A stretch of DNA of 64,000 nt from Rhodothermales bacterium (lineage in GTDB: Bacteria > Bacteroidota > Rhodothermia > Rhodothermales > Bin80), in the NCBI GenBank assembly GCA_965216255.1, contig OZ244148.1:838623-902622 (forward strand), in the 5' to 3' direction. The position numbers were made by a program, and so were the translations under genes. Shown here piece by piece: positions 23,040-40,255 of this stretch. A model generated the notes under the pieces. That model saw only the letters and a list, made by a program, of their open reading frames with translations, was not told where the DNA came from and did no database searches. Within the stretch, counting starts at the first letter, position 1. The number at the start of each line of letters is the position of its first letter.

Positions 23040-23683
23040 ACCAGCGGCTGAGAAAGATAATGGCTCGGTACCGCGTGGCGGTCAATACATCGGCGAGCCC
23101 GTCCTTGTTAAGATCAGCTACCGCCAGATCGATTCCGACGCCGCTGTGGTTGTTTATGAGTTCCGCTACATACTGCACCCTCTTACCATTGCGGACGAGC
23201 CGGAACCAGTAGATAACCGGAGGCCCGAAGGGGTCGGGATCCGATGGATTTCCCCCGAAATGCGCCCACCAGCGCTTCCCTGCTACGATGTCCTTTAAGC
23301 CGTCACCGTCGGCTAGCGCCAACGCGTGCAGCGCCGCGAACACCACACCCTCATTCGGATGCACGAAATCGTCCATGATCGTGTGCTGTTCGAACGAGAT
23401 ACTGCCGTCCGGTGCACGCTTTTGCTCAAACCAGGCAAGGCCGAAACCGTGCGCTTCGAGACTGGTGACGACATCATTCAATCCGTCACCGTTCACATCG
23501 TAGGCAAAGGTCCTGCCTCCACCGGGTCCGCCTTGCTGCGCTCCTCAGCGTCCTAAGGATTCCGCGTGGTAAATCCACGGCGGGCCGGTTAGGACCTCCG
23601 GTTGTTCCCACCAGCCGTAGGCCTGTATGATATCCATTCGAGAGTCGCCGCTGATGTGACCCGCTCCGAGACCGTGGGCAAAC
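23040..23683 (-). pseudogene. C-terminal half of a split FG-GAP/VCBS-repeat (plus DUF1080-like) gene
   Basis: Reads FAHGLGAGHISGDSRMDIIQAYGWWEQP..*..AYDVNGDGLNDVVTSLEAHGFGLAWFEQ..DLNKDGLADVL, with an in-frame TGA at 23545-23547. The 3' limit is approximate. Confidence 0.8.
23677..23683. repeat. Left target-site duplication GGCAAAC of the IS66-bounded block
   Basis: Identical to 40256-40262; abuts GTAAGCG. Confidence 0.85.
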
Positions 23684-24049
23684 GTAAGCGTCCGGTGAAG
23701 TACAGGTCAGCGGCAGCTACAGGTGTGCCGATGGGTACAGGACGGCTGGAAGGCGGAGAGCAGGTGGGCTTGCCGGATCCGGCACACTCGGTGCTTGGCA
23801 GCTATGCCGCCTTGTTTTTGTCAGCTTGCCGTGCCTTCTGCCAATGATGAGGCAAGAGGTCAGCTACGCGCCTGGCCGGATGCGTCGGGATGCGCTCGAA
23901 CACGTCCGTGAGCCACTCCTGGGGATTGACACCGTGTAGCTTGCACGTGCCAAGTAGTGCTTGTACGAAAATACTTTAAATCTTCAATAAACAATCGGTT
24001 ATATCTTGCAATTGGCGGTGAATCTGAGGGACGTATAGCCGATTTGGGC

Positions 24050-25453: not shown

Positions 25454-25496
25454 GGCGTTTAAGAGCGCAAAACAGCTCACATTCGCCAGGGAAACC

Positions 25497-26930
25497 ATGC
25501 GCAAGATTGTCCCAGAGTGCCGTGCACTCGATAGTACGCCGATGGAGGAGATTGCCATAGACCCGAGAATGCGCGACGACATGAGTGCGGTGCTCAAGGG
25601 TCTGCAGTGCGTCTACTGCACGGCGGAATCTCGTGCGGCCTTGTTCACGATTCTGGAGGCGCACTTTCAGCCGGGTAAACGTAAAGATGTCGGACGCCCG
25701 GGCATGGATCTATGGCGCGTCATCGTGTTTGCGATAGTCAAGCAGTGCCTGGATCTGGACTACGATGCTTTGTTGTACCGGGCCAACAACGATCTCTTGC
25801 TGCGGGAGCTCTTGGGGCACGGAGACGCCGGGTTTGACGAGGTGAAGTACAGCAGACAGCGGCTGGTGGACAACGTGCAGCTTTTGACGCCGAAGCTGGT
25901 CCAGAAGGTGACCCAATTGATAGTGCAGACGGGGCACAAGGTGGCTGGAAAAAAGTCTGGGGCCGCGCTAGCCGGTCGCTGCGATTCCAGGGTGGTTAAG
26001 ACGCATGTGCACTATCCCACCGATGTGGGTCTGTGCTGGGATGCGGTTCGTGGTCTAATACGTGTGAGTGCACGCTCGGCTGCGGCATTCGCTCTTCCGG
26101 GCTGGCGCAAGCATGCGTATCGCACGCGGAAGGTATACCAGGCCTTCAGCCGGGTGCGGACGGCCCCGCGCTACCGGCAGAATCCGAAAGGAGTGCAGGC
26201 GTACTTGCGCCAGTGCACACAGACTGCAGCACGTGCCCGTACGCTGTTAAATGCCTTGGCCACGGCGCAGAAATCGGAGGCGGCGCGAGCGGATATCGCG
26301 TATTACTTGCACTATGTGGACTTGTTGGTGGATCAAATCCGGCGTCGCATCCTCTTGGGCAAGCAGATTCCACATGCGCGGAAAGTGTTTTCCATCCACA
26401 AGCCACATACGCGTTGGATCAGCAAAGGCAAGGCGGGCGTGCTGGTGGAGCTGGGCCTTCCGGTCGCACTGGTAGAAGATGAGCACCGGTTCATTTTGGC
26501 TTATCACATCCTGTGGGACACATCAGATGTAGAGGTGGCGGTACCGATCATTGACGCGGTGCAGGCGGCTTTTCCAGAGTTTAATGCGTGCAGTTTTGAC
26601 CGGGGCTTTCATAGCTTGAAGAATCGAGAAGCATTGGATGCTCGGCTGGCGCTCAATGCGCTTCCGAAGAAGGGCAAGCTTTCTCTGACGGAGCGTGCGC
26701 GGGAGCACGCGCCTGCGTTCAAGGCAGCGCGGCGGCAGCACCCGGCCGTCGAGTCGTGTCTGGCCAATTTCGGACTTCGGGGCGGTGCGCTGGTGCGGGA
26801 GAAGAGTCCGGAGAACTTCGCGCTGATGGTGAGCCTGTCGGTGTTGGCGGTCGACGTGCACCGGCTGGGTTGCCTGGTGCGCGCCCAGGAACGGGCACGA
26901 ATGAGGCGTCGGCGAAAGCGCGCGGCGTAG
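25497..26930 (+). CDS. ISNCY-family transposase
   Basis: GRPGMDLWRVIVF, RCDSRVVKTHVHYPTDVGL, VFSIHKPHTRWISKGKAG..VELG, SFDRGF and HPAVES. Confidence 0.85.
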   Translation: MRKIVPECRALDSTPMEEIAIDPRMRDDMSAVLKGLQCVYCTAESRAALFTILEAHFQPGKRKDVGRPGMDLWRVIVFAIVKQCLDLDYDALLYRANNDLLLRELLGHGDAGFDEVKYSRQRLVDNVQLLTPKLVQKVTQLIVQTGHKVAGKKSGAALAGRCDSRVVKTHVHYPTDVGLCWDAVRGLIRVSARSAAAFALPGWRKHAYRTRKVYQAFSRVRTAPRYRQNPKGVQAYLRQCTQTAARARTLLNALATAQKSEAARADIAYYLHYVDLLVDQIRRRILLGKQIPHARKVFSIHKPHTRWISKGKAGVLVELGLPVALVEDEHRFILAYHILWDTSDVEVAVPIIDAVQAAFPEFNACSFDRGFHSLKNREALDARLALNALPKKGKLSLTERAREHAPAFKAARRQHPAVESCLANFGLRGGALVREKSPENFALMVSLSVLAVDVHRLGCLVRAQERARMRRRRKRAA

Positions 26931-28485
26931 GCCCGCTACCACCTCGTAGAAAGGTCCCAATCGCAGTCCCCAAGGGACACGTATGCCCTCCCGATAGGAA
27001 CACAACGCCCTTCGAGTCGCAAACTGTCCGTGCGCGCACGCAAGAGACGCCAGCATGGCCGAAACACTCGAAGCGGACCGTCAACGAACTCAAAAAACAA
27101 CCGTGCCTGTGCATTCGAGGCCGAAAAAAGAGAGTATTCGGTCAATCACCAAGTAGCGAATAGACCACGGCTGCCCGCTGGGCCGCATCATGTGATCCCG
27201 CGAACAGGTAATTCTTGCGGCCGATAACCAACGGCCGCAGGGCATTTTCAATGAGGTTATTGTCCAGCTCCACGCGGCCCTCATCCAGGTATCGGGTCAG
27301 CCTTTTCCAAAGGCCGAGCGTATAGTTGATCGCCTGGCCCCAAGGACTCTTGGGCAACCCCCCGTTCGCCTCCAGCCAGGGCTTCAGCGCTTCCAGTACA
27401 GGCCGGGCCTCTTCCTGACGTACCTCGCGCCGACGATCCGCACTGGCTCCCTCCTCTCGCAGCCTGCGCTCTATGGCGTAGAGTCGCCTGATCTTTGTCA
27501 ACACGTGCTCGGCCTTCTCCGGTTCGTAGCTACGACAGTCGTAGAACTTGCGACGGGCATGCGCCATGCATCCGTAGACCGTCATAGACGGATGCGCATC
27601 GAAGACGTTGTAGGCCACATACCCGTCCGTCTGCAACGCTCCCGCATACCCACCCAAGAACGCCACCGGACCTGCACGGGCACGGCTCTTGCGATACTCC
27701 ATCACAAACAGCTTCTGCTCCGGAGTGTGGTACGCCCAGTAAAAACCCCGATGGGTCTTGCCCTTCTTCTTTCGATCCTGGACCTGGATACGTGTCTCAT
27801 CCGCCTGCAGATACCCGCTTAAGAGCGCCTCCTGCTTGAGTGCATCATACAGCGGCCCAAGGTGCCACGCTGACTGCGCTATCCAGCCTCCCAGCGTGGA
27901 CTTGGCAATTTCAATGCCTTCCCGCCGGAAACGCTGCTGCTGCCGGTACAGGGGCAAGTGGTCACAGTACTTGTTAACCACCACATCGGCCAACAATCCC
28001 GGTCCGGCCATGCCCTTGTCCACCAGCCGCGGAGGCAACTCGGCGATGATGACGCCGCTGTCCTCATCGGTCGGGTCCACATACTTGGGACGATGAATCT
28101 CGACCACCTTTATCATGCTGGGCACGCTCTCCAGGTACTGCGTCTTCTCCATGCCGATGCAAATGAGACCTGTCGTGTCCTCTTCAGGCTGGATTACGAT
28201 CGTCTCGCGGGGCAGGTGATCCGGCAGATCCTCGAAGTCCGGACGCCGCTTGGCCTTGCGCCGCTTCCGCTTCGGCTGATCCGTCTCGGGCTCGGGCGGC
28301 AGGGGCACCTCGACCTCCATGTCGTCAAACAAGAGGCCCTGCTGCGCCTCCGGCCCCAGTACATACCTTTCGCTCCTGGAGCCAAAGAGCAGGCGGAGGG
28401 CTTCAGCCAACTGTTTGTCCTTGCTCTCCAATTTCGCCTGCAGCCGGCTTATCTCTTCGCTCTGCTGATTGTTCTCCTCGGACAG

Positions 28486-30420
28486 GTAGAGTCGACGGGC
28501 GGCGCGTTACTCCCATTAGGAGCACGTTTCCGCCCGCCGCTCATCAAACCGGACGTGCAGAATTACCGCATCCGGCTTTCAGACAAGATCATGTTTTCGC
28601 CCACGGAAGGCCCTTGGTCGTTGGCTCAAGGCATATCAAGCCATACTTCTTGTATAGCTCTTCGTGTGGGAAGCGCGCCCACCCCCCCGGACTGAACCTT
28701 GTGCTTGCGACAGAGCCACTGGCGAATCCGCTTCTTCATGTGTGCATCTATGCCTGCATAGGCGGGATTGACTTGTCCAAGTCGGAAGTAGTTGGCCCAT
28801 CCGGTCGATAACCAGTTAAGGCGTGTTACCATCTCCTCTATGGACAGCAGTCCGTGCCTTGCCGCCGTTTGCTCACTGATCCTGCGGCATATGCTCTGGA
28901 CACTCTTCTTGCTCGGGCGAGTCCCTATATAGGATCCTCTGCCGCCCGGACGAAAGTTGCGCCCAATCCGGTACCCAAGGAACTCAAACGGTTCTTCGGG
29001 GCACCGGACGCATCGGGTCTTCCTTGCGTTGACCGGGAGTTTCAGCCGTTGCATTATGGTCTCCACCGCTTCCAGCATCGCTGTACCATCGGCCTTTCCG
29101 AGTACCACAAAATCATCGGCGTAGTTCACGATCGACGCTTGGAAGCGCCGGGCATAGCCCAGCAGCTTCCAGGCAAGGAGAAAACGGCGCATGTAGATGT
29201 TGCTCAGCAAGGGAGAGATTGGCGCGCCTTGCGGCGTACCCTTTCCTTCCTTCCGAGCCCGGTTCGTCAGGCGTTTGCCTGCCTTACCGTCATCTTCCAC
29301 TACCGGCATCACCAGCCATGACTTGATGAGTTCGAGCATCCGACCATCGCTGATACGACGCGCCAGAGACTTCATCATCTTGTCATGCGGTATCTCACCA
29401 AAGTAGTTCGACAGGTCTGCATCAACCACTTCCCGACAGCCCGTATTTACGAGCCTGTGGACGCGATTGACCGCTTCCTGTGCGCCACGTCCCTTCCGAT
29501 AGGCATATTGCTCCTCTTGTAAATCCGCTTCAAAGATCGGCCCCAGCACCAGCATTGCCGATGTCTGCGCGACCCTGTCACGAATACAGGGAATGCCTAA
29601 CGGTCGGAACTTGCCTGGCTGCTTCTTCGGGATCAGTACCTGACGTACCGCACGCGGTTTGTACGTACCCTCCCTTAGATCCCGCGCCAGTTCCCCCAAC
29701 CATCGATTTATGCCGTGCGCTTCAATGTCTCGAAACGTCTCTCCATCCACACCGGCACTGCCGCCGTTACGGCGTACTTGTTGCCAGGCTGCGAACAAGA
29801 AATCCTTCCTCCACACTTTGTCACACAATGCATGGAAGCGACGCTTGGGGTCTTCCTTCGCTTTGACATGTAATACGCGCTGGAGGTCCCGAACCGATTC
29901 TGATCCTGTTAGACCTGCGTCAGTAACCATTGCCTTTCCCCCTTTGCGTATTGCTCTTGAATGAGGGTCCCTTTCCTCGACGAGCATTACCCCGCGTCAC
30001 AGGTACTACGGACCCATCCGCCACCCTGACGGCCCAATCTGTCCCTTGCGGGAAATCGGTTGGCTTACGTGTGCCTCCGGCAGGGCTTCCCGTGTTGCTA
30101 CTTTTCCCATCTTGCATGCATGCCAGTGCCACTACCCCGGCGGAAGTAATCTGGTGCTTGTGTCGTTCTCTTCCCAGACTACCGGCGGCCTTCCCCTTAC
30201 CAACGGAGGGTCGGCTTCCGCATTGCATGTTTCGAGGCCTGCTCGGCATTCACTACGCGTTCCGGCCTGCATGCTCGCTGAATCGCCTAAGCGACCCTTT
30301 ACCAAAGTGCTTCAGCTCATGTTGTTACCTCCATAAACCGCTTTGGCCGCTACTAGCTGGAGCGACAGTTACTAGGTGGGATTCGCACCCACTAGGGAAA
30401 AGCGCCTTATCACGGCGCAC
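28486..30420 (-). ncRNA. Group II intron (1935 nt), same sense as tnpC
   Basis: 5' end GTGCG at 30420. Domain V GAAAGCCGGATGCGGTAATTCTGCACGTCCGGTTTGATGAG; 3' end ...CGACTCTAC. Removal restores the tnpC frame ...QQNAS|LSEE.... Confidence 0.95.
28626..29930 (-). CDS. ltrA: Group II intron reverse transcriptase/maturase (no En domain); apparent +1 frameshift near the C-terminus
   Basis: GGSAGVDG, IPKKQPGKFRPLGIPCIRDRVAQ, GTPQGAPISPLLSNIY, YADD and FLGY motifs. Confidence 0.93.
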   Translation of the reverse strand: MVTDAGLTGSESVRDLQRVLHVKAKEDPKRRFHALCDKVWRKDFLFAAWQQVRRNGGSAGVDGETFRDIEAHGINRWLGELARDLREGTYKPRAVRQVLIPKKQPGKFRPLGIPCIRDRVAQTSAMLVLGPIFEADLQEEQYAYRKGRGAQEAVNRVHRLVNTGCREVVDADLSNYFGEIPHDKMMKSLARRISDGRMLELIKSWLVMPVVEDDGKAGKRLTNRARKEGKGTPQGAPISPLLSNIYMRRFLLAWKLLGYARRFQASIVNYADDFVVLGKADGTAMLEAVETIMQRLKLPVNARKTRCVRCPEEPFEFLGYRIGRNFRPGGRGSYIGTRPSKKSVQSICRRISEQTAARHGLLSIEEMVTRLNWLSTGWANYFRLGQVNPAYAGIDAHMKKRIRQWLCRKHKVQSGGVGALPTRRAIQEVWLDMP

Positions 30421-30573
30421 GCTGGCGTTCTGCTGAAGCACCGCGGCAAGCTGCGCACGGAAGGTCTCAACATCCGCAGAAGAGAGGGAGGAATGTGCTT
30501 CGGGCTGCATGACTGTTCAACAACGCCTGCACATGTATTGTTCCCCGTTTCCACATACTATCTATCCCGATTT

Positions 30574-30909
30574 TCAGCTCTTAACCGCATACCGGCGCCG
30601 GTATTTTACGGACTTCAGCGACACTCCCTCCAGTAACATCACCATCTGCGTCCACGTCGGCATATCCTCTTTCGGCAGCTCAAACGTACCCGCTTCAAGC
30701 CTTTTGTAAAACAAGGCGAAGCCGTTTCGGTCCCACGAAAGCGCCTTCAGATGGCTCCGCCTCCTGTTGACGAACACAAAGACGTCCCCCGACATGGGAT
30801 CCCGCTTCATGCCGCTTTTCACCAAGGCGCACAGACCGTCAAAGCTCTTGCGCATGTCGGCCGGCGGCCGGTAAAAGAAATACCGGTGCGAAGGCCCCAG
30901 TCCGATCAT
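30574..30909 (-). CDS. tnpB: IS66 accessory protein TnpB
   Basis: DMRKSFDGL, GDVFVFVNRRR and WDRNGFALFYKRLEAGTF. Confidence 0.93.
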   Translation of the reverse strand: MIGLGPSHRYFFYRPPADMRKSFDGLCALVKSGMKRDPMSGDVFVFVNRRRSHLKALSWDRNGFALFYKRLEAGTFELPKEDMPTWTQMVMLLEGVSLKSVKYRRRYAVKS

Positions 30910-31205
30910 GACTGCACCAGCTGCGCCAGGTACGAGGCAGATACCGGCGCCAAGAGGCGCACGCGTATCCCGCCCGGGTACATGATCTCCACTTGCGCCT
31001 CTTCACCTGCCGTGGGTCTGCCAATCTCCACAAAGGCGCCGCTGTCCACTGCCGCAGCCTCCAGGCGATACTTCCGACGCCAGTAAAACAGCTGCCCATA
31101 CGAGATGCCGCGCTCGGCACAGAACGCTGCAGCGGTCTGGCTGCTTTCTTCATACTGTTCCATGAGCGGAAATATTTCTTCCGCCGTACGTCTGGGCTGT
31201 CTCAT
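30906..31205 (-). CDS. tnpA: IS66 accessory protein TnpA
   Basis: HTH FCAERGISYGQLFYWRRK and VEIMYPGGIRVR; ATGA overlap with tnpB. Confidence 0.88.
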   Translation of the reverse strand: MRQPRRTAEEIFPLMEQYEESSQTAAAFCAERGISYGQLFYWRRKYRLEAAAVDSGAFVEIGRPTAGEEAQVEIMYPGGIRVRLLAPVSASYLAQLVQS

Positions 31206-31612
31206 GCCATCCAGGCTTTGAGTCCTCGGGTCTATGAGTAATCTCCCGAGAAATCGTCACCTTATCCAGATGGGTTTCACCGCACGCTTACGATTTACCG
31301 TCCCGGTAACAAGGTCGCCTTACATGTAAGCACCCAGCCATTTCGCGAAGCGAAACCAGGGCGAATGCCCGTGAGGCGCGGCGAAAGGCCTTTGTCTTGT
31401 TTGCTGGTACCTGGTACTACCTGGTACCCATTCTCCCAAGTGACAGCAAGCGCGGCAAGAGTGCGATCACGCACAAATCCACATACGTCGGGCGGCGAGT
31501 GATACGTAGTCCGAATAAACCGGCGAGAGCACCCTCGCGAAGGCTCATTCAGGGTATCACACAAGTCTACAACCGACGCACCCCGCTGGCAGCGTTTGCA
31601 CTTTCGCTCGGC

Positions 31613-32206
31613 CTATATTGACTCAAGAGGCGTTGGTACTGACGGCGGATTCCATGACGGTGCCCGGCCATTGACAAGAAACCGGCCGATCCACGACACC
31701 CAACCGGCCGCATTGTAAAACTTGATACGTACTTCCTTAGGCGAGAATTGCGCCTCATCTGCGATCTGACTGCTGTGGGCCAATGCGTTCCTCTCCGCGA
31801 CAAGTGCCATAAAATCGAGGGAGGCACTTAACACATCTCCGTTTTCCTCGCTAGCCTCTTGAACTCTATCCCGGAAGTCCGTACCGAACTTCCTCAAGAA
31901 ACTGTTGACCTTGCCAGATTTCCAATCAAACAGCGTGTGGAATCTTCGATCAAGAACTCCCGCTCTTACGAACAATACAAGCGTCTCTTCACTAGAGGCT
32001 CTGTTCGCGAAGTCCAGCAAAGCACACACGGTCCGGCGCTCAAGCCAGTTCCCCGCCGCAAGAACCATCGCCTTCGCGAAAGCTGATCGTGTGCTGACTA
32101 AGATCGTAGCGTCGCACCCAGACATGTACTGTTCCAAGTCGACGAGGTTGTCCCACAAACGTTCGACGTACGATTCCGCTGGCTCGGGAGGCGCCTGCAT
32201 ATGCAC
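31613..32206 (-). CDS. HEPN-domain protein (RiboL-PSP/MAE_28990-like), putative RNase effector
   Basis: Rx4H motif RNALAH in a helical protein with AKAMVLAAGNWLE and RRFHTLFDW; starts immediately after the DUF262 gene stop. Confidence 0.75.
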   Translation of the reverse strand: MHMQAPPEPAESYVERLWDNLVDLEQYMSGCDATILVSTRSAFAKAMVLAAGNWLERRTVCALLDFANRASSEETLVLFVRAGVLDRRFHTLFDWKSGKVNSFLRKFGTDFRDRVQEASEENGDVLSASLDFMALVAERNALAHSSQIADEAQFSPKEVRIKFYNAAGWVSWIGRFLVNGRAPSWNPPSVPTPLESI

Positions 32207-33400
32207 TTATCTCCTGGACAGGACACTCTTCGCACTGCGAAGTCTGGCCTTGACTTTGTCCGGCTTGGTCGTACCTTCCTTCAACGCCTCTCGAAACGCT
32301 GGGTCTTGGTCAATAGCAGAAATGTCCTCAGCACGCAATGGCTTGACAGCCGCGGAGCCGTCAGCGAGTCGCGGCCGCAGTGCTTCCGCGAACACAACCT
32401 CGAAGAGGGGCACATTGAATCGGGAACGACCTTTCACCATGAAGACATCATCTGGCAAATCCGAACAGGCTTCCAAAAAATCAGAAAAGAGGCACTTCAC
32501 CTTATCGATCATATCAGGGCCGAAGTTGCGCTTGCAGTTTCCGGAAAACCGATTGAGAAACTTCACCATTGAGGGCCGATACTCATTGAGCCAGAGCAAA
32601 AGCGCGAATGAGCGGAGAAGAATTTCTACGTCCTTGAAGCGAACGTCAGGTTCTGGCCGGGGTAGCAGGCGGCGCCAACATGACCGCATGTTCAGCTTGA
32701 GCAGTAAGTCCAAGAACTCGGAGTTGTACAGACTCATCCTCAGTTCTTGAGCCGACAGATTTAAGCCCCCCGAGTTCAAACGGTTGAAAATTTCAAACAT
32801 CGAAGAGTGATCGTCTGTTGGCCTAACCTGCTTGATCACGACATTCCGTACGGTCCGAAGGTCCAGGGTTCGTTTCTCCTCCCCTAGTGTCGCGTACTTT
32901 TTCCCGTGGAACGGGCTTTGCGCGTTCGGTTCTCCGCCTAGTCCCTTTAGTGACAGCCGGAAATCAGAGAATAGGTCATCATTCTCGAGTATCGATTCAG
33001 CAAGTGAGCCACTTTCGTCGAACAGAGCCCTGATCTTGGCGCGCGCATTGCGATTTGGGAAACGCCCCTTAACAAAGTAATAGAGCGTCATGAGTCTCTG
33101 CTGACCATCAATCAGTAGTAGGGGATCTTTGTTGTGCTGGTAGAGAAACACTTGGGGAACGGGCAATCCGAGAAGTAGGGACTCAATTAGACGTGAGGAT
33201 CGAGCTAGATCCCAGACGAAGTTTCTCTGGAATCCAGGTATGCGAATAGAACCTGCGTCGATGAACGAGACGATGACAGCGACGTTGAAATCGTTAGGGA
33301 CTGCCGTGATGTCGTATTCGGGAATATAGCTGTCAGGCGCTGGTTCCTCCCCGTGGTCGCGCCATTCCTCTTCCGTGATTTCAGGATTTCTGCCAGCCAT
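32207..33400 (-). CDS. DUF262 (ParB-like/GmrSD N-terminal) domain protein
   Basis: IPGFQRNFVW, LIESLLLGLPVP, IDGQQRL and FNRLNSGG motifs. Confidence 0.9.
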   Translation of the reverse strand: MAGRNPEITEEEWRDHGEEPAPDSYIPEYDITAVPNDFNVAVIVSFIDAGSIRIPGFQRNFVWDLARSSRLIESLLLGLPVPQVFLYQHNKDPLLLIDGQQRLMTLYYFVKGRFPNRNARAKIRALFDESGSLAESILENDDLFSDFRLSLKGLGGEPNAQSPFHGKKYATLGEEKRTLDLRTVRNVVIKQVRPTDDHSSMFEIFNRLNSGGLNLSAQELRMSLYNSEFLDLLLKLNMRSCWRRLLPRPEPDVRFKDVEILLRSFALLLWLNEYRPSMVKFLNRFSGNCKRNFGPDMIDKVKCLFSDFLEACSDLPDDVFMVKGRSRFNVPLFEVVFAEALRPRLADGSAAVKPLRAEDISAIDQDPAFREALKEGTTKPDKVKARLRSAKSVLSRR

Positions 33401-33749
33401 CCCGAGGGTAGGTTTGTGAGAGCCGAAAGATAGTTACAGTATCTACCAGAAGCGAGTGTCGAGTGTTCCTGCAAGGGGGATGGCCGTGACGGTTGTTGCA
33501 GGCATGGATTGTGGGTTCTCGGTGAGCGCAACATACTGCCTCGTTTGGGAAAGGGGTGGATGGGCGTGCGGCGTGGGGCGCCGATCCCATCCACCCCTAC
33601 TCTTACTCCGCCGACAATAAACACCCCGACGACGACAACGACCTGCTTTCCGTCGTGCCCGCTGAATGGGCTGCGGGACGTGATAATAGGTTACGCCTGA
33701 ACGCAAGCCGATCTTGGCGCCACACCACCGTCTGCTAACTGGCCGGCAG

Positions 33750-34085
33750 TCACCGTCGATTCCGAAACCAGAGAAGGGTTCTCCTGATCACATACGTGAA
33801 CCAGAAAATGTAAAATAGGAAACTCAGGATTACCGTTAAAGCCACGTGCCAATCTTCTGTGTACAAGTAGTCGGCGAAGGATACCAGTAGCATGGGACCT
33901 ATGGTCAGCAGCAGAAACAGGACGATCCGCCAAGCTATCCCAATGGCAGCTGACACGCTCTGTGTTGGTGTTTCGGGCCTGTTCCCGGGTCTCTGTTTCC
34001 GGGAGGTTGGTGCGCCTTCGTCGTTTCCTTCAATAAGTCGCCATCTGGCGTCTTTGATATCCGGATTGCGCATGGGACGAGTCAT
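33750..34085 (-). CDS. Small 2-TM hypothetical membrane protein
   Basis: 111 aa from MTRPM with two clear hydrophobic segments (IGIAWRIVLFLLLTIGPMLLVSF; VALTVILSFLFYIFWFTYVI). Confidence 0.5.
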   Translation of the reverse strand: MTRPMRNPDIKDARWRLIEGNDEGAPTSRKQRPGNRPETPTQSVSAAIGIAWRIVLFLLLTIGPMLLVSFADYLYTEDWHVALTVILSFLFYIFWFTYVIRRTLLWFRNRR

Positions 34086-34607
34086 GGTCACATGATATGG
34101 CAGGCCTGTTAGACAGGTGACGAAACGCAAGGTTCTGCGTTACATAAGCGCTCATTATGTGAGAAACTGTCATATCTTGGGTCTGTAGAATGCCGCGGCG
34201 TATCTTTGTGGAGTACCCATCAATCGCCCTAGACGGGCATATCCGGACTACATCGTATGACAGATCCAACAGAATCCAACGTACACTCACTCCTTACCCG
34301 TGAGGAGGCACTCAGCACTCTGGATGATCTGGTGCGCAGCTCCGCCCGGCGCATGCTTCAGGCAGCGCTCGAGCGGGAAGCCGACGACTACGTGAAGGCC
34401 CATGCACACCTGCGGAATGAGAACGGCCACCGAATGGTCAAACGCAATGGCCACCATCCGCAGAGAGAAATCCTCACGGGTGCGGGCCCGCTAGCGATCC
34501 AGCGGCCCCATATCCGTAACCCTCGAACAGATCTTATAGTAGGACTGCTCCGGCTGGGCGAGCTACATTAGCTCGTTCACCACATTCACCCAAACCGGAA
34601 CAGCCTC

Positions 34608-35747
34608 ATGCAAAGATACACTCCAACATTCACTTCGGCCTCCTCGCTGGTTGTCGGCATGGACGTGCACAAGAAGACCATTGCGCTTTGCGTGTACGAC
34701 GACAGCACGGGCGAGGTAATTGACGAGCGGCAGTTGCCGCACGACATGCCGAGAATCCGCAAGTATGTGCAGAAGTTACAGAGGCGCTACGGCGAGGTTC
34801 GTTGCTGCTACGAAGCGTCGTCCTGCGGATTCGGCCTGCAGCGTGCGCTGCAGGTGCAGGGCGTGCACTGCGACGTGATCGCCCCCTCATCCATTCCGCG
34901 TCGACCGGGCGAGCGTATCAAGACTGATCGACGGGATGCGATGAAGCTGGCCACGTTGTATGCCAAAGGGCTGCTGACGCCGGTGTGCGTACCGGAAGAG
35001 GAGCAGGAAGCAGCCCGGTCCCTTTTGCGCTGCCGCGCTGACTTGGTGGAGTCTATCACGCGCACCAAGCAGCGGATCCTGTCTTTCATTCAGACCCGGG
35101 GCTTTCGGTACACCGGTGCCACAAACTGGACGAAGGCCCATTGGAAGTGGATTCGTGCCTTGCCGGCAAGGGCGGTGGACCAGGTCACGCTGCAGACGTA
35201 TCTGCACAAGCTGACGTATCTGGAGCAGGAAGTGCACAGACTGGAACAGCAACTGGCAGAGGAGGCCGAAAAGGACCGCTACAGAGAGCCCGTGGGGGTG
35301 CTGATGGCCTTCCGGGGCATAGGCTTTGTGACGGCCATGACGCTGGTGTGCGAATTGGGAGACATCCGTCGCTTCGCGCATCCGCGGCAGTTAATGGCGT
35401 ATCTCGGCCTGGTGCCGAGCGAGTACAGCTCGGGCGATCACACGCAGCGCGGCTCCATCACAAAGACGGGCAACACGCATGTTCGCAAGGCGCTGGTGTC
35501 AACGGCATGGAAGTATGCAGCCCAACCGCGGTGCAGTAAAGTGCTACGCGAACGGCAGCAGGGCGTCTCGGCCGAGGTCGTTCTACTGGCATGGAAGGCC
35601 CAGTGCCGGCTGTACAAGAGATTCCGCAAACTGAGTCAGACGAAGTCGCGATGCGTGGCCAACACGGCGGTGGCGCGTGAACTGGCGGGCTTTCTCTGGG
35701 AGGCGTTGCGTATGCACACGGGCTCGCCGTTGCCGAAGGCCGCCTGA
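34608..35747 (+). CDS. IS110/IS1111 DEDD recombinase (transposase)
   Basis: RuvC-like GMDVHK, CYEAS, KTDRRDA; Tnp domain RRFAHPRQLMAYLGLVPSEYSSG and GSITKTGN. Confidence 0.95.
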   Translation: MQRYTPTFTSASSLVVGMDVHKKTIALCVYDDSTGEVIDERQLPHDMPRIRKYVQKLQRRYGEVRCCYEASSCGFGLQRALQVQGVHCDVIAPSSIPRRPGERIKTDRRDAMKLATLYAKGLLTPVCVPEEEQEAARSLLRCRADLVESITRTKQRILSFIQTRGFRYTGATNWTKAHWKWIRALPARAVDQVTLQTYLHKLTYLEQEVHRLEQQLAEEAEKDRYREPVGVLMAFRGIGFVTAMTLVCELGDIRRFAHPRQLMAYLGLVPSEYSSGDHTQRGSITKTGNTHVRKALVSTAWKYAAQPRCSKVLRERQQGVSAEVVLLAWKAQCRLYKRFRKLSQTKSRCVANTAVARELAGFLWEALRMHTGSPLPKAA

Positions 35748-36018
35748 CTCGTATCTTGTAACCAAAGAGAAATGGCCTATGGAGAAGTGATCGGGCACGG
35801 TAAGGAGAACCCACGATATGCCCTTGCGATAGCCAGCTCTCTTGCTGGTGAGTGCGCGTCAACAGATAGTGGCAGCTCCCGTCGAAACCGAAATCATGCG
35901 TTATGGTCCTTCGGGGCTTAGCACGCGAATACCAGATTGATTAGCCGTCGAAGCCGCCCGGTCGCTTCTCCAGAGGTCAAGCCAAACACTCTTCATGTAA
36001 TCTTCACTTGACATAGTA
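35748..36018 (+). ncRNA. Predicted bridge RNA/seekRNA of the IS1111-type element
   Basis: Contains TATGCCCT (reverse complement of target AGGGCATA), AACAG (target left plus core) and ATACCAGAT (donor circle junction), with intervening hairpins. Transcript limits are unknown. Confidence 0.7.
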
Positions 36019-36343
36019 TCCTACTATACCAGGGCATACCTTCACCAGCGCCATACTGCCGCGCTATATGCGCCGCAGTCCGTCGATAGATGCACTCATT
36101 CCGGCTTTGTACCTGCGGGGAGTTTCGACCAACGACTTTCCTATGGCCCTGGAGGCCATACTCGGGCCGCAAGCTGGCAACCTATCGCCATCGTCGATCA
36201 GCCGACTCAAGGGGGCTTGGCTAGAGGAATACCGGCAATGGAACAAGCGGGACTTGACGGGCAAGCGGTATGTTTACCTCTGGGCTGACGGGCTGTACTT
36301 CAATGTCCGCATGGGAAACGAGCGCCCGTGTCTGCTGGTTATT

Positions 36344-37781
36344 CGGAAGTTCCCCCCAAAATCAAGGCGATACAGAGTGTTCTGCAGGTATTAATCTCGG
36401 CGTAAGTAGTGTATGAATAAGCAGTTGCAGATAAGTCCTGCGCCACATTCGTCCGTAATAGGTCCAAATTATGATTCCCATGTAATTGACTCTGTCTTCA
36501 TCCAGTCTTCACAGTTATTCCGGACTCATAGTTGACGTTATAACACCTATTTACCCATCTTTATATCTGCGGCTATTCCTAGATCATCTTTCTAATAAAG
36601 TACCCATGTATGTCGCCACCGTCCCCAACCGCGGTGCCCGCCCCACCTACCTCATCCGCCAAGGCAAACGCCATGGCCGCAAAGTCGTCAAAACCACCCT
36701 CGCCAATATCTCCAAACTCCCCGATGATATCATCGACTACATCCGCATCCTCCTGCGCGGGGGCATCGCCGTCGATAACCCACAGTACGCCTTCCAACAC
36801 TCCTTCCGCTTCACCAAAGGTATCCCCCATGGAAACGTCGCCGCCGTACTCGGCTGCCTCCGTGACCTGAAGCTCCACAGCATCATCGCAACCAAAGATT
36901 CCAAACAGCGACGCCTCGCCATCGCCCTTATCGCTGCCCGTATCCTTGATCCCAAAAGCAAACTCGCCACCAGCGCAGCCCTGCACCCGGACACCGCCAC
37001 CCATTCGCTCGGTACCGAACTCGGTCTCGAAAACATTGACGAGGACACCTCTACCAGACCATGGATTGGCTGCTGAAGCGCAAAAGCACCATCGAAGAGC
37101 GCCTCGCTCGCCAGCACCTCGAGGAGGGCTCTCTCGTCCTTTGCGATGTTACCTCCACTTACGTCGAAGGCGAAGCCCTCGAGCTGGCCGAGTATGGCTA
37201 CTCCCGGGACAAGAAAAAGGGCAAGAAACAGATCGTCTTCGGCCTACTCACCGGCAAAGACGGCTGCCCCGTGGCCGTGGAAGTCTTTGCAGGCAATACG
37301 GCCGATCCCAACACGCTGGCTCCGCAGATTGCCAAGATCCAGCAACAATTCGGCCTCCGGCGCATCGTGCTCGTAGGAGACCGCGGCCTGCTTACCGAGG
37401 CCCGCATACGCAAAGAGGTCAAACCCGCCAGGACTGGATATCCGCCCTCAGGAAGAGCGGCATCCGCAAAATAGTGGAAACGGAAGCCCTGCAACTGTCC
37501 CTGTTCGACGAACAAGGCTTCGCGGAGATCACCACCGCCGTCTACCCGGGGGAGCGGATCGTCCTGTGCCGCAACCCGCTACGGGCCAGGGCGTCGGCGT
37601 ATAACCGCGAAAGACGGCTGGCAAAGACCGAAGAGGCGCTGGAGAAGATCGTAGTGGCCACCCGGCGCGAGGTAATCCCCTGCGTAGCATGAAGGCGATC
37701 AGCTTTCGTGTAGGGAAGGTCATCGGCAAGTGGAAGATGGAAAAGCATTTTGATCTGGATATTAAGGAAGGCTTCTTTAGC
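36344..37781 (+). pseudogene. IS1634-family element remnant (transposase from 36606, at least 3 frameshifts, truncated by IS66)
   Basis: MYVATVPNRGARPTYLIRQGKR..TLANISKLP, LCDVTSTYVEG, YGYSRDKKKGKKQIVFGLL, VGDRGLLT and ERIVLCRNP. The left boundary is approximate. Confidence 0.85.
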
Positions 37782-37867
37782 GTAAGCGTGCGGTGAAACC
37801 CATCTGGATAAGGTGACGATTTCTCGGGAGATTACTCATAGCCCCGAGGACTCAAAGCCTGGATGGC

Positions 37868-38167
37868 ATGAGACAGCCCAGACGTACGGCGGAAGAAATG
37901 TTTCCGCTGGTGGAACAGTATGAAGAAAGCAGCCAGACCGCTGCAGCGTTCTGTGCCGAGCGCGGCATCTCGTATGGGCAGCTGTTTTACTGGCGTCGGA
38001 AGTATCGCCTGGAGGCTGCGGCAGTGGACAGCGGCGCCTTTGTGGAGATTGGCAGACCCACGGCAGGTGAAGAGGCGCAAGTGGAGATCATGTACCCGGG
38101 CGGGATACGCGTGCGCCTCTTGGCGCCGGTATCTGCCTCGTACCTGGCGCAGCTGGTGCAGTCATGA
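37868..38167 (+). CDS. tnpA: IS66 TnpA
   Basis: Near-identical to 30906-31205. Confidence 0.88.
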   Translation: MRQPRRTAEEMFPLVEQYEESSQTAAAFCAERGISYGQLFYWRRKYRLEAAAVDSGAFVEIGRPTAGEEAQVEIMYPGGIRVRLLAPVSASYLAQLVQS

Positions 38168-38511
38168 TCGGACTGGGGCCTTCGCACCGGTATTTCTTTT
38201 ACCGGCCGCCGGCCGACATGCGCAAGAGCTTTGACGGTCTGTGCGCCTTGGTGAAAAGCGGCATGAAGCGGGATCCCATGTCGGGGGACGTCTTTGTGTT
38301 CGTCAACAGGAGGCGGAGCCATCTGAAGGCGCTTTCGTGGGACCGAAACGGCTTCGCCTTGTTTTACAAAAGGCTTGAAGCGGGTACGTTTGAGCTGCCG
38401 AAAGAGGATATGCCGACGTGGACGCAGATGGTGATGTTACTGGAGGGAGTGTCGCTGAAGTCCGTAAAATACCGGCGCCGGTATGCGGTTAAGAGCCGGG
38501 AATCGGGATAA
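38164..38511 (+). CDS. tnpB: IS66 TnpB
   Basis: DMRKSFDGL motif. Confidence 0.93.
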   Translation: MIGLGPSHRYFFYRPPADMRKSFDGLCALVKSGMKRDPMSGDVFVFVNRRRSHLKALSWDRNGFALFYKRLEAGTFELPKEDMPTWTQMVMLLEGVSLKSVKYRRRYAVKSRESG

Positions 38512-38562
38512 ATAGTATGTGGAAACGTGGAACAATGCATGTGCAGACGTTGTTGAACAATC

Positions 38563-40137
38563 ATGCAGCCCGAAGCACATTCCTCCCTCTCTTCTGCGGA
38601 TGTTGAGACCTTCCCTGCGCAGCTTGCCGCGGTGCTTCAGCAGAACGCAAGCCAGTCCGAGGTAATCAATCAGCTGAGCGAGGAGATAAGCCGGCTGCAG
38701 GCGAAATTGGAGAGCAAGGACAAACAGCTGGCTGAAGCCCTCCGCCTGCTCTTTGGCTCCAGGAGCGAAAGGTATGTACTGGGGCCGGAGGCGCAGCAGG
38801 GCCTCTTGTTTGACGACATGGAGGTCGAGGTGCCCCTGCCGCCCGAGCCCGAGACGGATCAGCCGAAGCGGAAGCGGCGCAAGGCCAAGCGGCGTCCGGA
38901 CTTCGAGGATCTGCCGGATCACCTGCCCCGCGAGACGATCGTAATCCAGCCTGAAGAGGACACGACAGGTCTCATTTGCATCGGCATGGAGAAGACGCAG
39001 TACTTGGAGATCGTGCCCAGCATGATAAAGGTGGTCGAGATTCATCGCCCCAAGTACGTGGACCCGACCGATGAGGACAGCGGCGTCATCATCGCCGAGT
39101 TGCCTCCGCGGCTGGTGGACAAGGGCATGGCCGGACCGGGATTGTTGGCCGATGTGGTGGTTAACAAGTACTGTGACCACTTGCCCCTGTACCGGCAGCA
39201 GCAGCGTTTCCGGCGGGAAGGCATTGAAATTGCCCAGTCCACGCTGGGAGGCTGGATAGCGCAGTCGGCATGGCACCTTGGGCCGCTGTATGATGCACTC
39301 AAGCAGGAGGCGCTCTTAAGCGGGTATCTGCAGGCGGATGAGACGCGTATCCAGGTCCAGGATCGAAAGAAGAAGGGCAAGACCCATCGGGGTTTTTACT
39401 GGGCGTACCACACTCTGGAGCAGAAGCTGTTTGTGATGGAGTATCGCAAGAGCCGTGCCCGTGCAGGTCCGGTGGCGTTCTTGGGTGGGTATGCGGGAGC
39501 GTTGCAGACGGACGGGTATGTGGCCTACAACGTCTTCGAAGCGCATCCGTCTATGACGGTCTACGGATGCATGGCGCATGCTCGTCGCAAGTTCTACGAC
39601 TGTCGTAGCTACGAACCGGAGAAGGCCGAGCACGTGTTGACAAAGATCAGCCGACTCTACGCCATAGAGCGCAGGCTACAAGAGGAGGGTGCCAGTGCGG
39701 AACGTCGGCGCGAGGTACGTCAGGAAGAGGCCCGGCCTGTACTGGAAACGCTGAAGCCCTGGCTGGAGGCGAACGGGGGATTGCCCAAGAGCCCTTGGGG
39801 CCAGGCGACCAACTATACGCTCGGCCTTTGGAAAAGGCTGACCCGATACCTGGATGAGGGCCGCGTGGAGCTGGACAATAACCTCATTGAAAATGCCCTG
39901 CGGCCGTTGGTTATCGGCCGCAAGAATTACCTGTTCGCGGGATCACATGATGCGGCCCAGCGGGCAGCCGTGGTCTATTCGCTACTTGGCACGTGCAAGC
40001 TACACGGTGTTAATCCCCAGGAGTGGCTCACGGACGTGTTCGAGCGCATCCCGACGCATCCGGCCAGGCGCGTAGCTGACCTCTTGCCTCATCATTGGCA
40101 GAAGGCACGACAAGCTGACAAACACAAGGCGGCATAG
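38563..40137 (+). CDS. tnpC: IS66 TnpC DDE transposase, intact
   Basis: N-terminal coiled coil, LFGSRSER, KYCDHLPLYRQ, LQADET, LQTDGY, CMAHARRKF and DNNLIENALRPLVIGRKNYLFAGS. Confidence 0.96.
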   Translation: MQPEAHSSLSSADVETFPAQLAAVLQQNASQSEVINQLSEEISRLQAKLESKDKQLAEALRLLFGSRSERYVLGPEAQQGLLFDDMEVEVPLPPEPETDQPKRKRRKAKRRPDFEDLPDHLPRETIVIQPEEDTTGLICIGMEKTQYLEIVPSMIKVVEIHRPKYVDPTDEDSGVIIAELPPRLVDKGMAGPGLLADVVVNKYCDHLPLYRQQQRFRREGIEIAQSTLGGWIAQSAWHLGPLYDALKQEALLSGYLQADETRIQVQDRKKKGKTHRGFYWAYHTLEQKLFVMEYRKSRARAGPVAFLGGYAGALQTDGYVAYNVFEAHPSMTVYGCMAHARRKFYDCRSYEPEKAEHVLTKISRLYAIERRLQEEGASAERRREVRQEEARPVLETLKPWLEANGGLPKSPWGQATNYTLGLWKRLTRYLDEGRVELDNNLIENALRPLVIGRKNYLFAGSHDAAQRAAVVYSLLGTCKLHGVNPQEWLTDVFERIPTHPARRVADLLPHHWQKARQADKHKAA

Positions 40138-40255
40138 CTGCCAAGCGCCGAGTGTGCCGGATCCGGCAAGCCCACCTGCTCTCCGCCTTCCAGCCGTCCT
40201 GTACCCATCGGCACACCTGTAGCTGCCGCTGACCTGTACTTCACCGGACGCTTAC

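What the first reader, a model, noticed from the sequence alone, without database searches (positions are those of the whole stretch)
31613..33400. DUF262 + HEPN two-gene module as the main intact cargo: candidate mobile anti-phage system
The only intact multi-gene non-transposase unit inside the composite transposon is a DUF262 gene (QRxxVW, DGQQR, FxRxN). It is followed with zero spacing by a HEPN gene with an intact Rx4H motif (RNALAH). Established: DUF262/ParB-like domains occur in GmrSD, SspE, Menshen and Dazbog defence proteins, and HEPN domains are RNase effectors. Inference: a nucleotide- or DNA-modification-sensing sensor-effector (abortive infection or toxin-antitoxin) being spread by IS66, 23 kb from a BREX locus. 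I cannot tell whether it matches an already named system.
Basis: partly seen in the sequence, partly recalled or inferred. Interest (0 to 1): 0.7.

Follow-up and report, generated by a model that had tools for sequence, protein, structure and literature searches.

The report
DUF262–HEPN defence pair on IS66 transposon
The two genes are real and intact, and they belong to a widespread, strictly paired DUF262 + HEPN operon that is a sister family of the validated E. coli anti-phage system PD-T4-2, so this is an ordinary new member of a known kind.

Summary
A 397-aa DUF262/GmrSD_N protein (32207-33400, minus) carries intact QRNFVW, DGQQR and FNRLNSGG motifs. A 195-aa HEPN protein follows 6 nt downstream (31613-32200), not at zero spacing, with RNALAH. 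The HEPN is a divergent member of Pfam RiboL-PSP-HEPN.

The pairing is obligate. In 78 of 80 genomes from many phyla found through the DUF262 protein, the HEPN gene lies directly downstream. In 73 of 75 metagenome loci found through the HEPN protein, DUF262 lies directly upstream. No third gene is conserved. Both genes are under purifying selection and co-evolve.

The architecture matches PD-T4-2 (DUF262 + RiboL-PSP HEPN, E. coli ECOR65, anti-T4), and the ParB/RiboL-PSP-HEPN operon was already noted in 2013. It is not Menshen, because NsnB and NsnC are absent. It is not GmrSD, because there is no DUF1524 nuclease. PADLOC's PD-T4-2_B model misses the window's HEPN, so this is a sister clade; the same clade occurs in E. 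coli prophage DNA.

The IS66 composite transposon is supported: neither IS copy has its own target duplication, but the 16.6-kb unit is flanked by a 7-bp direct repeat. IS66 is not the family's usual vehicle.

Likely mechanism, inferred only: a DUF262 NTPase/DNA sensor gates a HEPN RNase.

The parts
32207..33400 (-). Gene A: DUF262/GmrSD_N (ParB-like NTPase) protein, 397 aa, with a C-terminal all-helical domain (about aa 226-397) and no nuclease domain
   Evidence: ORF. Pfam PF03235 E 1.2e-28. PADLOC NsnA 1.6e-51 and PD-T4-2_A 3.6e-37. Motifs at nt 33212-33229, 33095-33109 and 32765-32788. AF2 model pLDDT 74.8, with the C-terminal half above 85 and helical. dN/dS 0.08-0.13.
31613..32200 (-). 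Gene B: RiboL-PSP-type HEPN protein, 195 aa, probable RNase effector. Rx4H = RNALAH at nt 31775-31792.
   Evidence: ORF. Start at ATG 32200 from the homologue alignment. PF18735 at 21 bits for this protein. 92 of 94 family representatives hit PF18735 and 27 of 94 hit PD-T4-2_B. R139, N140 and H144 are invariant in 94 distant relatives. AF2 model all-helical, pLDDT 86. dN/dS 0.18-0.19.
32201..32215 (-). Junction: AGGAGA Shine-Dalgarno inside the 3' end of gene A, TAA stop, and a 6-nt gap before the ATG of gene B (translational coupling)
   Evidence: Sequence AGGAGATAAGTGCATATG. The same 6-nt gap is seen in close relatives. Gaps range from -32 to +20 nt across 71 metagenome pairs.
31523..31538 (-). 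Terminator-like hairpin about 75 nt after the stop of gene B (weak evidence)
   Evidence: Pattern scan. The number of such sites is not above shuffled expectation.
37782..40255 (+). IS66 copy B, intact: tnpA 37868-38167, tnpB 38164-38511, tnpC 38563-40137. Termini GTAAGCG...CGCTTAC.
23684..31291 (-). IS66 copy A, 98% identical to copy B and inverted. It is broken by a 3.2-kb IS30/ISNCY insertion (23958-27148, 8-bp TSD CCAAGTAG) and by a group II intron (28487-30420).
23677..23683 (.). Left copy of the 7-bp direct repeat GGCAAAC abutting the outer end of IS66-A. The right copy is at 40256-40262, abutting IS66-B. Together they form the target-site duplication of the whole 16.6-kb composite.
   Evidence: Chance identity of two 7-mers in this window is about 9e-5. 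Neither IS copy has matching flanks of its own.
33401..37780 (.). Remainder of the cargo: 0.8 kb with no recognisable gene, IS256 remnants (34257-34571, 36068-36394) split by an IS110 element (tnp 34608-35747), and IS1634 remnants (36486-37692)
   Evidence: DNA homology to the nearest relatives stops at the ends of the two genes (window 33382-31635).

Best explanation
This is a self-contained two-gene anti-phage module of the PD-T4-2 type. Gene A encodes a ParB/DUF262 NTPase with a helical C-terminal domain, and I take it to be the sensor and regulator. By analogy with GmrSD, BrxU and SspE, it would bind DNA or a phage-derived cue and use NTP binding or hydrolysis at the DGQQR site to switch state. 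Gene B encodes a RiboL-PSP-family HEPN protein whose R-N-x3-H site is the only predicted catalytic effector. I infer that it is an RNase held in check by, or in complex with, protein A, and that it is released on infection to cut host and/or phage RNA and stop phage growth, probably by abortive infection or growth arrest. Shown here: both genes are intact with all motifs. They are an obligate, translationally coupled, co-evolving pair under purifying selection. The pair moves as a 1.8-kb unit between unrelated genomes, phages and plasmids. In this genome it arrived inside a 16.6-kb IS66 composite transposon. Inferred, not shown: physical complex formation, RNase activity, the trigger, and protection in this host.
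For: Domains: PF03235 E 1.2e-28. PADLOC NsnA 1.6e-51 and PD-T4-2_A 3.6e-37. HEPN family membership: 92 of 94 relatives hit PF18735 and 27 of 94 hit PD-T4-2_B. R139, N140 and H144 are invariant across relatives only 19-37% identical to the window protein. Pairing: 78 of 80 genome loci from more than 10 phyla. Reciprocal test: 73 of 75 metagenome loci, and the other 2 have the DUF262 gene nearby, separated by an insertion or frameshift. 23 of 26 testable viral contigs. No conserved third gene. DNA homology to the nearest relatives ends at the gene ends. Distance matrices of A and B correlate, r = 0.70, Mantel p = 0.001. dN/dS is 0.08-0.19. More distant DUF262 clades are followed by 160-180-aa RHxxAH proteins that are homologous to this HEPN (hhalign probability 94%, E 1.5e-7). 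Literature: PD-T4-2 = DUF262 + HEPN_RiboL-PSP (HHpred 99.7% and 97.8%). It protects K-12 against T4, and its deletion sensitises native ECOR65 (PMC9519451). RiboL-PSP-HEPN 'operon with ParB' (PMC3710099). Mobile and defence contexts: E. coli prophage, Akkermansia phage with a methyltransferase, an integrase/IS island, and restriction-modification, PARIS and mad neighbours in some loci.
Against: There is no functional data for this clade. The window HEPN gets no PADLOC PD-T4-2_B hit even at E<=1, and it is below Pfam's cut-off on its own. Foldseek found no significant HEPN match in PDB or BFVD for the good-quality model, so the fold assignment rests on sequence profiles. Protein A scores better against the Menshen NsnA model than against PD-T4-2_A. 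Many relatives sit among housekeeping genes rather than in defence islands. I could not retrieve the real PD-T4-2 sequences to measure identity directly. Whether PD-T4-2 acts by abortive infection is shown only in a figure I could not read.
Confidence: 0.72

Rival explanations
1. It is a toxin-antitoxin or addiction module whose main role is to stabilise the mobile element that carries it. HEPN would be the toxin and the DUF262 protein its neutraliser, with no dedicated anti-phage role.
For: It is a tightly coupled two-gene operon with the putative regulator first and the putative toxin second. It is carried on a transposon, on plasmids next to ccdAB and pemIK, and in prophages. Among the loci fetched, disrupted or missing HEPN genes are commoner (L002, L012, L031, L066, L033, L036) than disrupted DUF262 genes (L013). 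HEPN toxins are known in HEPN-MNT toxin-antitoxin systems (cited).
Against: The HEPN/DUF262 disruption asymmetry is biased, because those loci were found through DUF262. A 397-aa NTPase with invariant catalytic motifs is unlike a simple antitoxin. The sister system PD-T4-2 protects against T4 in its native strain. Toxin-antitoxin function and abortive-infection defence are not mutually exclusive.
Confidence: 0.15
2. It is a modification-dependent (type IV-like) or methylation-linked DNA restriction system. DUF262 would recognise modified or unmodified phage DNA, and the partner would act on DNA rather than RNA.
For: DUF262 is the sensor/NTPase of GmrSD, BrxU and SspE. The top, non-significant, Foldseek hits are BrxU, DndI and ParB. 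PD-T4-2 acts on T-even phages, which have modified DNA. Some relatives are adjacent to DNA methyltransferases (Akkermansia phage; 4 of 144 neighbours).
Against: There is no DUF1524, HNH or PD-(D/E)xK domain in either protein. HEPN domains are, as far as is known, RNases or inactive binders. A methyltransferase is absent in the window and in most loci.
Confidence: 0.08
3. It is inert cargo: genes that hitch-hiked into a decaying IS cluster and are silent or non-functional in this host.
For: The surroundings are a graveyard of nested and truncated IS elements. No convincing promoter was found upstream. The 0.8 kb upstream is not conserved in relatives.
Against: Both ORFs are full length with every family-invariant residue. 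dN/dS is 0.08-0.19 against relatives. The promoter scan covers only the sigma-70 consensus.
Confidence: 0.05

Closest known systems
PD-T4-2 (Vassallo et al. 2022; E. coli ECOR65, contig QOYX01000002 338334-339873)
   Same: Two genes in the same order and on the same strand. A is a DUF262 protein without a nuclease domain. B is a small HEPN of the RiboL-PSP type with Rx4H. Protein A hits the PADLOC PD-T4-2_A model over its whole length (3.6e-37). Relatives of B hit PD-T4-2_B (27 of 94). The partner HEPNs of neighbouring clades are profile-homologous.
   Different: It is a sequence-divergent sister clade. The window B protein gets no PD-T4-2_B hit, and A scores higher against NsnA. The pair is longer (1788 bp against 1540 bp). 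The motif is RNxLxH in this clade and RHxxAH in the shorter clades. No experiment exists for this clade. Direct identity to PD-T4-2 was not measured.
Menshen (NsnA-NsnB-NsnC; Millman 2022; PMC12065111)
   Same: Protein A is NsnA-like: ParB-DUF262 plus a helical C-terminal domain. It is the best PADLOC hit, 1.6e-51, covering model positions 41-380 of 385. The predicted logic of a DUF262 sensor with an RNase effector is shared.
   Different: There is no NsnB ABC-ATPase/DUF3696 and no NsnC inPIN-effector, either in the window or as a conserved neighbour in 80 loci. The effector here is a stand-alone HEPN directly coupled to the sensor, with no transducer.
GmrSD / BrxU / SspE (type IV restriction and phosphorothioate-sensing nucleases)
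   Same: An N-terminal DUF262 NTPase domain with the DGQQR motif. The weak top structural matches are BrxU 7p9m and DndI 9jfl.
   Different: There is no DUF1524/HNH nuclease domain. The protein is 397 aa, against about 550-790. The effector is a separate HEPN protein.
RiboL-PSP-HEPN and MAE_28990 HEPN families 'in operon with ParB' (Anantharaman et al. 2013, PMC3710099)
   Same: This is exactly the association seen here. The family carries a conserved Rx4-6H and lies in an operon with a ParB-like gene. 92 of 94 relatives hit PF18735.
   Different: That work was purely comparative and gave no function. The window protein is a divergent member, below Pfam's gathering score.

Membership tests
PD-T4-2 | Component A: DUF262/GmrSD_N protein of about 350-400 aa with no fused nuclease domain | tested here: met
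   PF03235 E 1.2e-28 and no other Pfam domain. PADLOC PD-T4-2_A 3.6e-37 in two stretches, the better one over residues 197-394 (model positions 166-361 of 363), although NsnA scores higher.
PD-T4-2 | Component B: small HEPN of the RiboL-PSP type with Rx4H | tested here: met
   RNALAH is present. PF18735 is sub-threshold for the window protein (21.1 bits) but is hit by 92 of 94 family representatives. R, N and H are invariant.
PD-T4-2 | B matches the PD-T4-2_B profile used by PADLOC | tested here: not met
   No hit at E<=1 for the window protein. Only 27 of 94 relatives hit, best E 1.6e-9. The E. coli NRG857C orthologue scores 2e-4. This is the reason to call it a sister clade rather than a PD-T4-2 orthologue.
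PD-T4-2 | A then B, adjacent, same strand, with no further obligatory gene | tested here: met
   6-nt gap. 78 of 80 and 73 of 75 loci are paired. No conserved third gene.
PD-T4-2 | Protects against phage (T-even phages in E. coli) | not testable with these tools
   Known only for the ECOR65 system itself.
Menshen | NsnA-like DUF262 + ParBDB protein | tested here: met
   PADLOC NsnA 1.6e-51, residues 28-395.
Menshen | Adjacent NsnB ABC-ATPase (DUF3696) and NsnC inPIN-effector | tested here: not met
   In the window, gene B is followed by the IS66 end at 31292. No recurrent third gene in 80 loci. Pfam and PADLOC scans of 144 neighbours show no recurrent family of the NsnB/NsnC kind among the 25 commonest.
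GmrSD/BrxU/SspE | DUF262 fused to a DUF1524/HNH nuclease domain | tested here: not met
   Only GmrSD_N was found. Hits to the SspE, HEC-05 and HEC-06 models cover only the N-terminal motif region.
Dazbog | DzbA/DzbB proteins | tested here: not met
   No Dazbog model is among the PADLOC hits at E<=1 for either protein.
HEPN superfamily | All-alpha domain with a conserved Rx4-6H | tested here: met
   The AF2 model is entirely helical, pLDDT 86. Rx4H is invariant.
HEPN superfamily | Structural similarity to a solved HEPN domain | tested here: inconclusive
   Foldseek against PDB gave no hit with E<=0.001, and BFVD gave none. The PDB profile search found nothing. No structure of this HEPN family appears to be solved.
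HEPN-MNT toxin-antitoxin | Minimal nucleotidyltransferase partner | tested here: not met
   The partner is a DUF262 protein.
IS66 composite transposon | Two IS66 copies bracketing the cargo | tested here: met
   Inverted arms are 98% identical. IS66 TnpC, TnpB and HTH_Tnp_1 domains are present.
IS66 composite transposon | Target-site duplication flanking the whole unit and not the single IS copies | tested here: met
   GGCAAAC at 23677-23683 and 40256-40262. The inner flanks do not match. The repeat is 7 bp exact, or 8 bp with one mismatch; the usual 8 bp for IS66 is from my own knowledge.
IS66 composite transposon | Still able to move (both ends and a transposase intact) | tested here: inconclusive
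   Copy B is intact and all four termini are present. Copy A's tnpC is split by a group II intron and its end is separated by a 3.2-kb insertion.

The most novel reading that the evidence does not exclude
The RNxLxH clade found here has about 620 clusters at 50% identity, occurs in many phyla, and is also present in 31 complete E. coli genomes. It could be a functionally distinct defence family that current PADLOC models do not call. In it, a ParB-like NTPase would gate a HEPN RNase directly, without the ABC-ATPase transducer that Menshen uses, and its trigger or phage range could differ from that of PD-T4-2.
Probability: 0.35. Interest if true: 0.45.

Novelty: new member of a known kind. Interest (0 to 1): 0.3.

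Why it matters
The value is mostly for annotation. A widespread, strictly paired DUF262-HEPN clade is only half recognised by a standard defence-finder library: A is called NsnA-like and B is missed. Such loci will therefore be left unannotated or read as orphan Menshen genes. The mechanism of PD-T4-2-type systems is still unknown in the literature I could search. A minimal sensor-effector pair with an orthologue in E. coli (WP_001182199 / WP_000389900) would be a convenient model for how a ParB-fold NTPase controls an RNase. The transposon context is a clean example of a defence module moved by a composite IS66 element, but that is not new in kind.

Tried and rejected
Searches that found nothing useful:
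- Foldseek of the HEPN model against PDB and BFVD gave no significant hit, so there is no structural confirmation.
- Foldseek of the DUF262 model ranked BrxU, DndI and ParB on top, but with E >= 0.01.
- PDB sequence-profile searches gave nothing for HEPN and only a marginal BrxU hit for DUF262.
- An exact-sequence look-up of the window's DUF262 protein found no record, so the source organism was not identified.
I repeated it with A5.

Attempt to obtain the real PD-T4-2 sequences:
- ECOR65 is not in the searchable collections.
- The E. coli chromosomal pair, an IncF plasmid pair, a P2-like phage pair and the Akkermansia phage pair all turned out to be NsnA-like/PD-T4-2-like relatives, not PD-T4-2 itself.

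Readings considered and rejected:
- Menshen, because there is no NsnB or NsnC.
- GmrSD/BrxU/SspE, because there is no nuclease domain.
- HEPN-MNT toxin-antitoxin, because there is no MNT partner.
- Linkage to the BREX locus, because 15 kb of metabolic genes lie between them.
- Two independent IS66 insertions, or an inversion between them, because the outer flanks match each other and the inner ones do not.

Not achieved:
- Defence-island enrichment could not be quantified. The neighbour scan returns only family counts.
Full report
**1. What is in the sequence**

Two ORFs lie on the minus strand.

- Gene A (32207-33400, 397 aa) matches Pfam GmrSD_N/DUF262 at E 1.2e-28 over residues 43-225, and no other Pfam family.
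All are invariant in an alignment of 33 homologues that go down to 48% identity.
- Gene B as a mechanical ORF is 31613-32206, starting at a GTG directly after the TAA stop of gene A.
- All 29 close homologues start at the residue matching the ATG at 32200. The window's own called protein, P0001, is 195 aa. An AGGAGA box sits 10 nt upstream of that ATG, inside the end of gene A.
- The real arrangement is therefore stop, 6 nt, start. This is a translationally coupled operon, not 'zero spacing'. The same 6-nt gap is found in close relatives.
- RNALAH is at nt 31775-31792.

**2. Is gene B really a HEPN?**

- On its own, the protein hits PF18735 (HEPN_RiboL-PSP) at only 21.1 bits, below the 28.4-bit cut-off. 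It has no PADLOC or NCBIfam defence hit.
- A profile of 30 close homologues, searched against 1.84 billion representative proteins, found 620 clusters (441 at E<=1e-10). Nearly all are 170-190 aa.
- Of 94 members of this family, most only 19-37% identical to the window protein, 92 hit PF18735 (best E 1.2e-23) and 27 hit PADLOC PD-T4-2_B (best 1.6e-9).
- G108, R139, N140 and H144 are invariant across all 94.
- The AlphaFold model is confident (pLDDT 86, pTM 0.86) and entirely helical.
- Foldseek found no significant match in PDB or BFVD, and profile searches of PDB sequences found nothing.
- The HEPN assignment is therefore well supported by sequence profiles and motif conservation, but it is not confirmed by structure. 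No member of this HEPN family appears to have a solved structure.

**3. Gene A beyond the DUF262 domain**

- The C-terminal 170 residues are predicted helical with high confidence. They carry no nuclease signature.
- PADLOC's best hits are NsnA of Menshen (1.6e-51, nearly full length) and PD-T4-2_A (3.6e-37). The SspE, HEC-05/06 and Orf5 models match only the N-terminal motifs.
- Foldseek's top hits are BrxU, DndI and ParB-CDP, in the expected family but not significant.

**4. The pair is obligate and self-contained**

- A scan of one genome per species found 441 relatives of gene A. In the best 80 (45-80% identity), 78 have a member of the HEPN family immediately downstream on the same strand. 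These 80 span Proteobacteria, Acidobacteriota, Spirochaetia, Binatia, Actinomycetota, Cyanobacteria, Chlamydiota, Parcubacteria and others. A few of the HEPN genes are frameshifted or interrupted.
- The reciprocal test started from the HEPN protein in metagenomes. In 73 of 75 testable loci, DUF262 lies directly upstream. The other two have it nearby, separated by an insertion or frameshift. Gaps run from -32 to +20 nt.
- No third gene is conserved. After clustering 579 flanking ORFs, the largest neighbour family occurs in 4 of 80 loci.
- DNA homology between the window and its nearest relatives (81% to a Rhodothermaceae MAG, 74% to a Bryobacterales MAG) starts and stops at the ends of the two genes (window 33382-31635).
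- Pairwise distances of A and B across 71 intact pairs correlate (r = 0.70, Mantel p = 0.001). B evolves faster than A.
- Against three close relatives, dN/dS is 0.08-0.13 for A and 0.18-0.19 for B. dS is near saturation.
- More distant DUF262 proteins (about 33% identity) in viral contigs and on an E. coli IncF plasmid are also followed, at 0-10 nt, by 160-180-aa proteins with an RHxxAH motif. A profile of these aligns to the window's HEPN family with 94% probability and E 1.5e-7, with the Rx4H motifs superposed.
- The DUF262-HEPN operon is therefore a superfamily with several HEPN sub-clades.

**5. Genomic contexts of relatives**

- Contexts are heterogeneous. Some relatives lie among restriction-modification, PARIS (AriA), mad and Mza genes, and next to integrases or IS elements. 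Others are solitary insertions between housekeeping genes such as ligA, polA, recG or rpoD.
- The pair also occurs on phage or prophage DNA: 23 of 26 testable IMG/VR contigs with a DUF262 protein at 41% identity or more, and Akkermansia phage Chambord, where a DNA methyltransferase overlaps the start of gene A.
- 31 of 5,426 complete E. coli genomes matched a relative's pair at the DNA level. In the one I inspected, strain NRG 857C, it is annotated 'DUF262 domain-containing protein' + 'HEPN domain-containing protein' (43% and 30% identical to the window proteins) and sits inside prophage-type DNA.

**6. Comparison with known systems**

- PD-T4-2 (Vassallo et al. 2022) is listed as 'DUF262, HEPN'. 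HHpred gives DUF262 at 99.7% for A and HEPN_RiboL-PSP at 97.8% for B. It protects K-12 against T4, and its deletion from ECOR65 restores T4 plaquing. A 2023 review files PD-T4-2 under both DUF262 and PF18735.
- Anantharaman et al. 2013 had already recorded RiboL-PSP-HEPN 'in operon with ParB', and MAE_28990 HEPN with ParB and methylase genes.
- The 2025 Menshen study lists PD-T4-2 among the DUF262-centred systems. It defines Menshen by NsnA + NsnB (ABC ATPase/DUF3696) + NsnC.
- The window pair has the PD-T4-2 architecture. It lacks the Menshen transducer and effector, and it lacks the DUF1524 nuclease of GmrSD, BrxU and SspE.
- It is not a close orthologue of PD-T4-2. The window's B protein is missed by the PD-T4-2_B model, and A scores better with NsnA. 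The same holds for the E. coli, Erwinia, Akkermansia-phage and plasmid relatives.
- I could not retrieve the ECOR65 sequences to measure identity directly.
- I found no mechanistic paper on PD-T4-2 or on RiboL-PSP HEPNs in the searchable library.

**7. The transposon**

- Two IS66 copies, 98% identical and inverted, bracket the cargo.
- Copy B (37782-40255) has intact tnpA, tnpB and tnpC.
- Copy A (23684-31291) is split by a 3.2-kb insertion (23958-27148, 8-bp duplication CCAAGTAG, IS30- and ISNCY-family transposases) and by a group II intron (28487-30420, intact RT/maturase, Rfam RF02003).
- Neither copy has matching flanks of its own. The outer ends of the 16.6-kb unit are abutted by the same 7-mer GGCAAAC (23677-23683 and 40256-40262). 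The chance rate for two 7-mers in this window to match is about 9e-5.
- This supports a single transposition of the composite, followed by later decay of copy A.
- The rest of the cargo is IS debris (IS256 split by IS110, and IS1634), so the DUF262-HEPN pair is indeed the only non-transposase cargo.
- IS66 is not a recurrent neighbour of relatives. 'Spread by IS66' therefore describes this locus, not the family.
- The BREX genes (420-8648) are separated from the transposon by 15 kb of metabolic genes.

**8. Mechanism**

- Best-supported reading (confidence about 0.7): a two-component sensor-effector defence. A ParB-fold NTPase and DNA-binding protein controls a HEPN RNase, probably within a complex. 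Infection releases RNase activity and stops phage growth.
- Shown here: gene integrity, motif invariance, obligate linkage, coupling, co-evolution, purifying selection and mobility.
- Inferred from homology: NTPase activity, RNase activity, complex formation, the trigger (possibly modified phage DNA, since PD-T4-2 acts on T-even phages), and an abortive-infection outcome.
- Rivals: an addiction or toxin-antitoxin role, a DNA-targeting restriction role, and silent cargo.

**9. Verdict**

- This is a real, intact and probably functional defence module. It is an ordinary one: a new member, in a divergent sister clade, of the known DUF262 + RiboL-PSP-HEPN (PD-T4-2-type) kind.
- Its modest value lies in the annotation gap and in offering a minimal, E. 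coli-tractable model for an unsolved mechanism.
- Interest 0.3.

Noticed in passing
window 28487-30420: A group II intron sits inside the tnpC gene of IS66 copy A. Its RT/maturase ORF is intact (28626-29987, minus), and Rfam RF02003 matches at 30255-30394. The insertion point corresponds exactly to position 38652 of the intact copy.
   Followed up: partly
window 23958-27148: A 3.2-kb insertion in the end of IS66 copy A has an 8-bp duplication, CCAAGTAG. It carries both an IS30-family (24331-25320, minus) and an ISNCY-family (25440-26930, plus) transposase, so it may itself be nested.
   Followed up: partly
window 34257-37692: IS256 transposase remnants (34257-34571 and 36068-36394) are split by an IS110-family element (tnp 34608-35747). 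IS1634-family remnants follow (36486-37692).
   Followed up: partly
window 420-8648: This is the 3' half of a type 1 BREX locus (pglX, pglZ, brxL). The upstream genes would lie left of the window.
   Followed up: partly
window 22783-22857: tRNA-Thr(CGT) lies 0.8 kb left of the transposon end. It overlaps a 286-aa minus-strand ORF with weak FG-GAP hits, so one of the two calls may be spurious.
   Followed up: no
window 33750-34130: A 126-aa minus-strand ORF upstream of the DUF262 gene has no family hit and is not conserved in the nearest relatives. Together with 33401-34256 it forms about 0.8 kb of unexplained sequence.
   Followed up: partly
L002 9533-10975; L145 2429-4064: In a Bryobacterales MAG, the HEPN gene is interrupted by about 1.4 kb. 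In one metagenome contig, about 1.6 kb separates DUF262 from HEPN. HEPN is frameshifted in L012, L031 and L066 and absent in L033 and L036. DUF262 is frameshifted only in L013. This may hint at HEPN toxicity, but the sampling is biased.
   Followed up: no
L083 2902-5712 (Akkermansia phage Chambord): A DNA methyltransferase gene overlaps the start of the DUF262 gene, and the HEPN gene follows. This is a three-gene variant carried by a temperate phage.
   Followed up: no
L081 5928-7644 (E. coli NRG 857C): The E. coli pair of the same clade sits between a truncated lambdoid capsid gene and a satellite-like block (HTH regulator, head decoration, capsid, SSB, primase). This may be a defence cargo site of a capsid-forming satellite.
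   Followed up: no
L084 140-2015 (Peduovirus P2_4B2): An NsnA-like DUF262 protein (381 aa) is followed by a 239-aa protein with no PADLOC hit, next to a methyltransferase in a P2 accessory region. This could be another partner type for this DUF262 family.
   Followed up: no
L217 and L218: The closest homologue (83% identity) occurs on at least two large contigs of one assembly. In both it is embedded in the same block of two tyrosine integrases and IS3-type transposase genes, so there it travels on a different, multi-copy mobile element.
   Followed up: no
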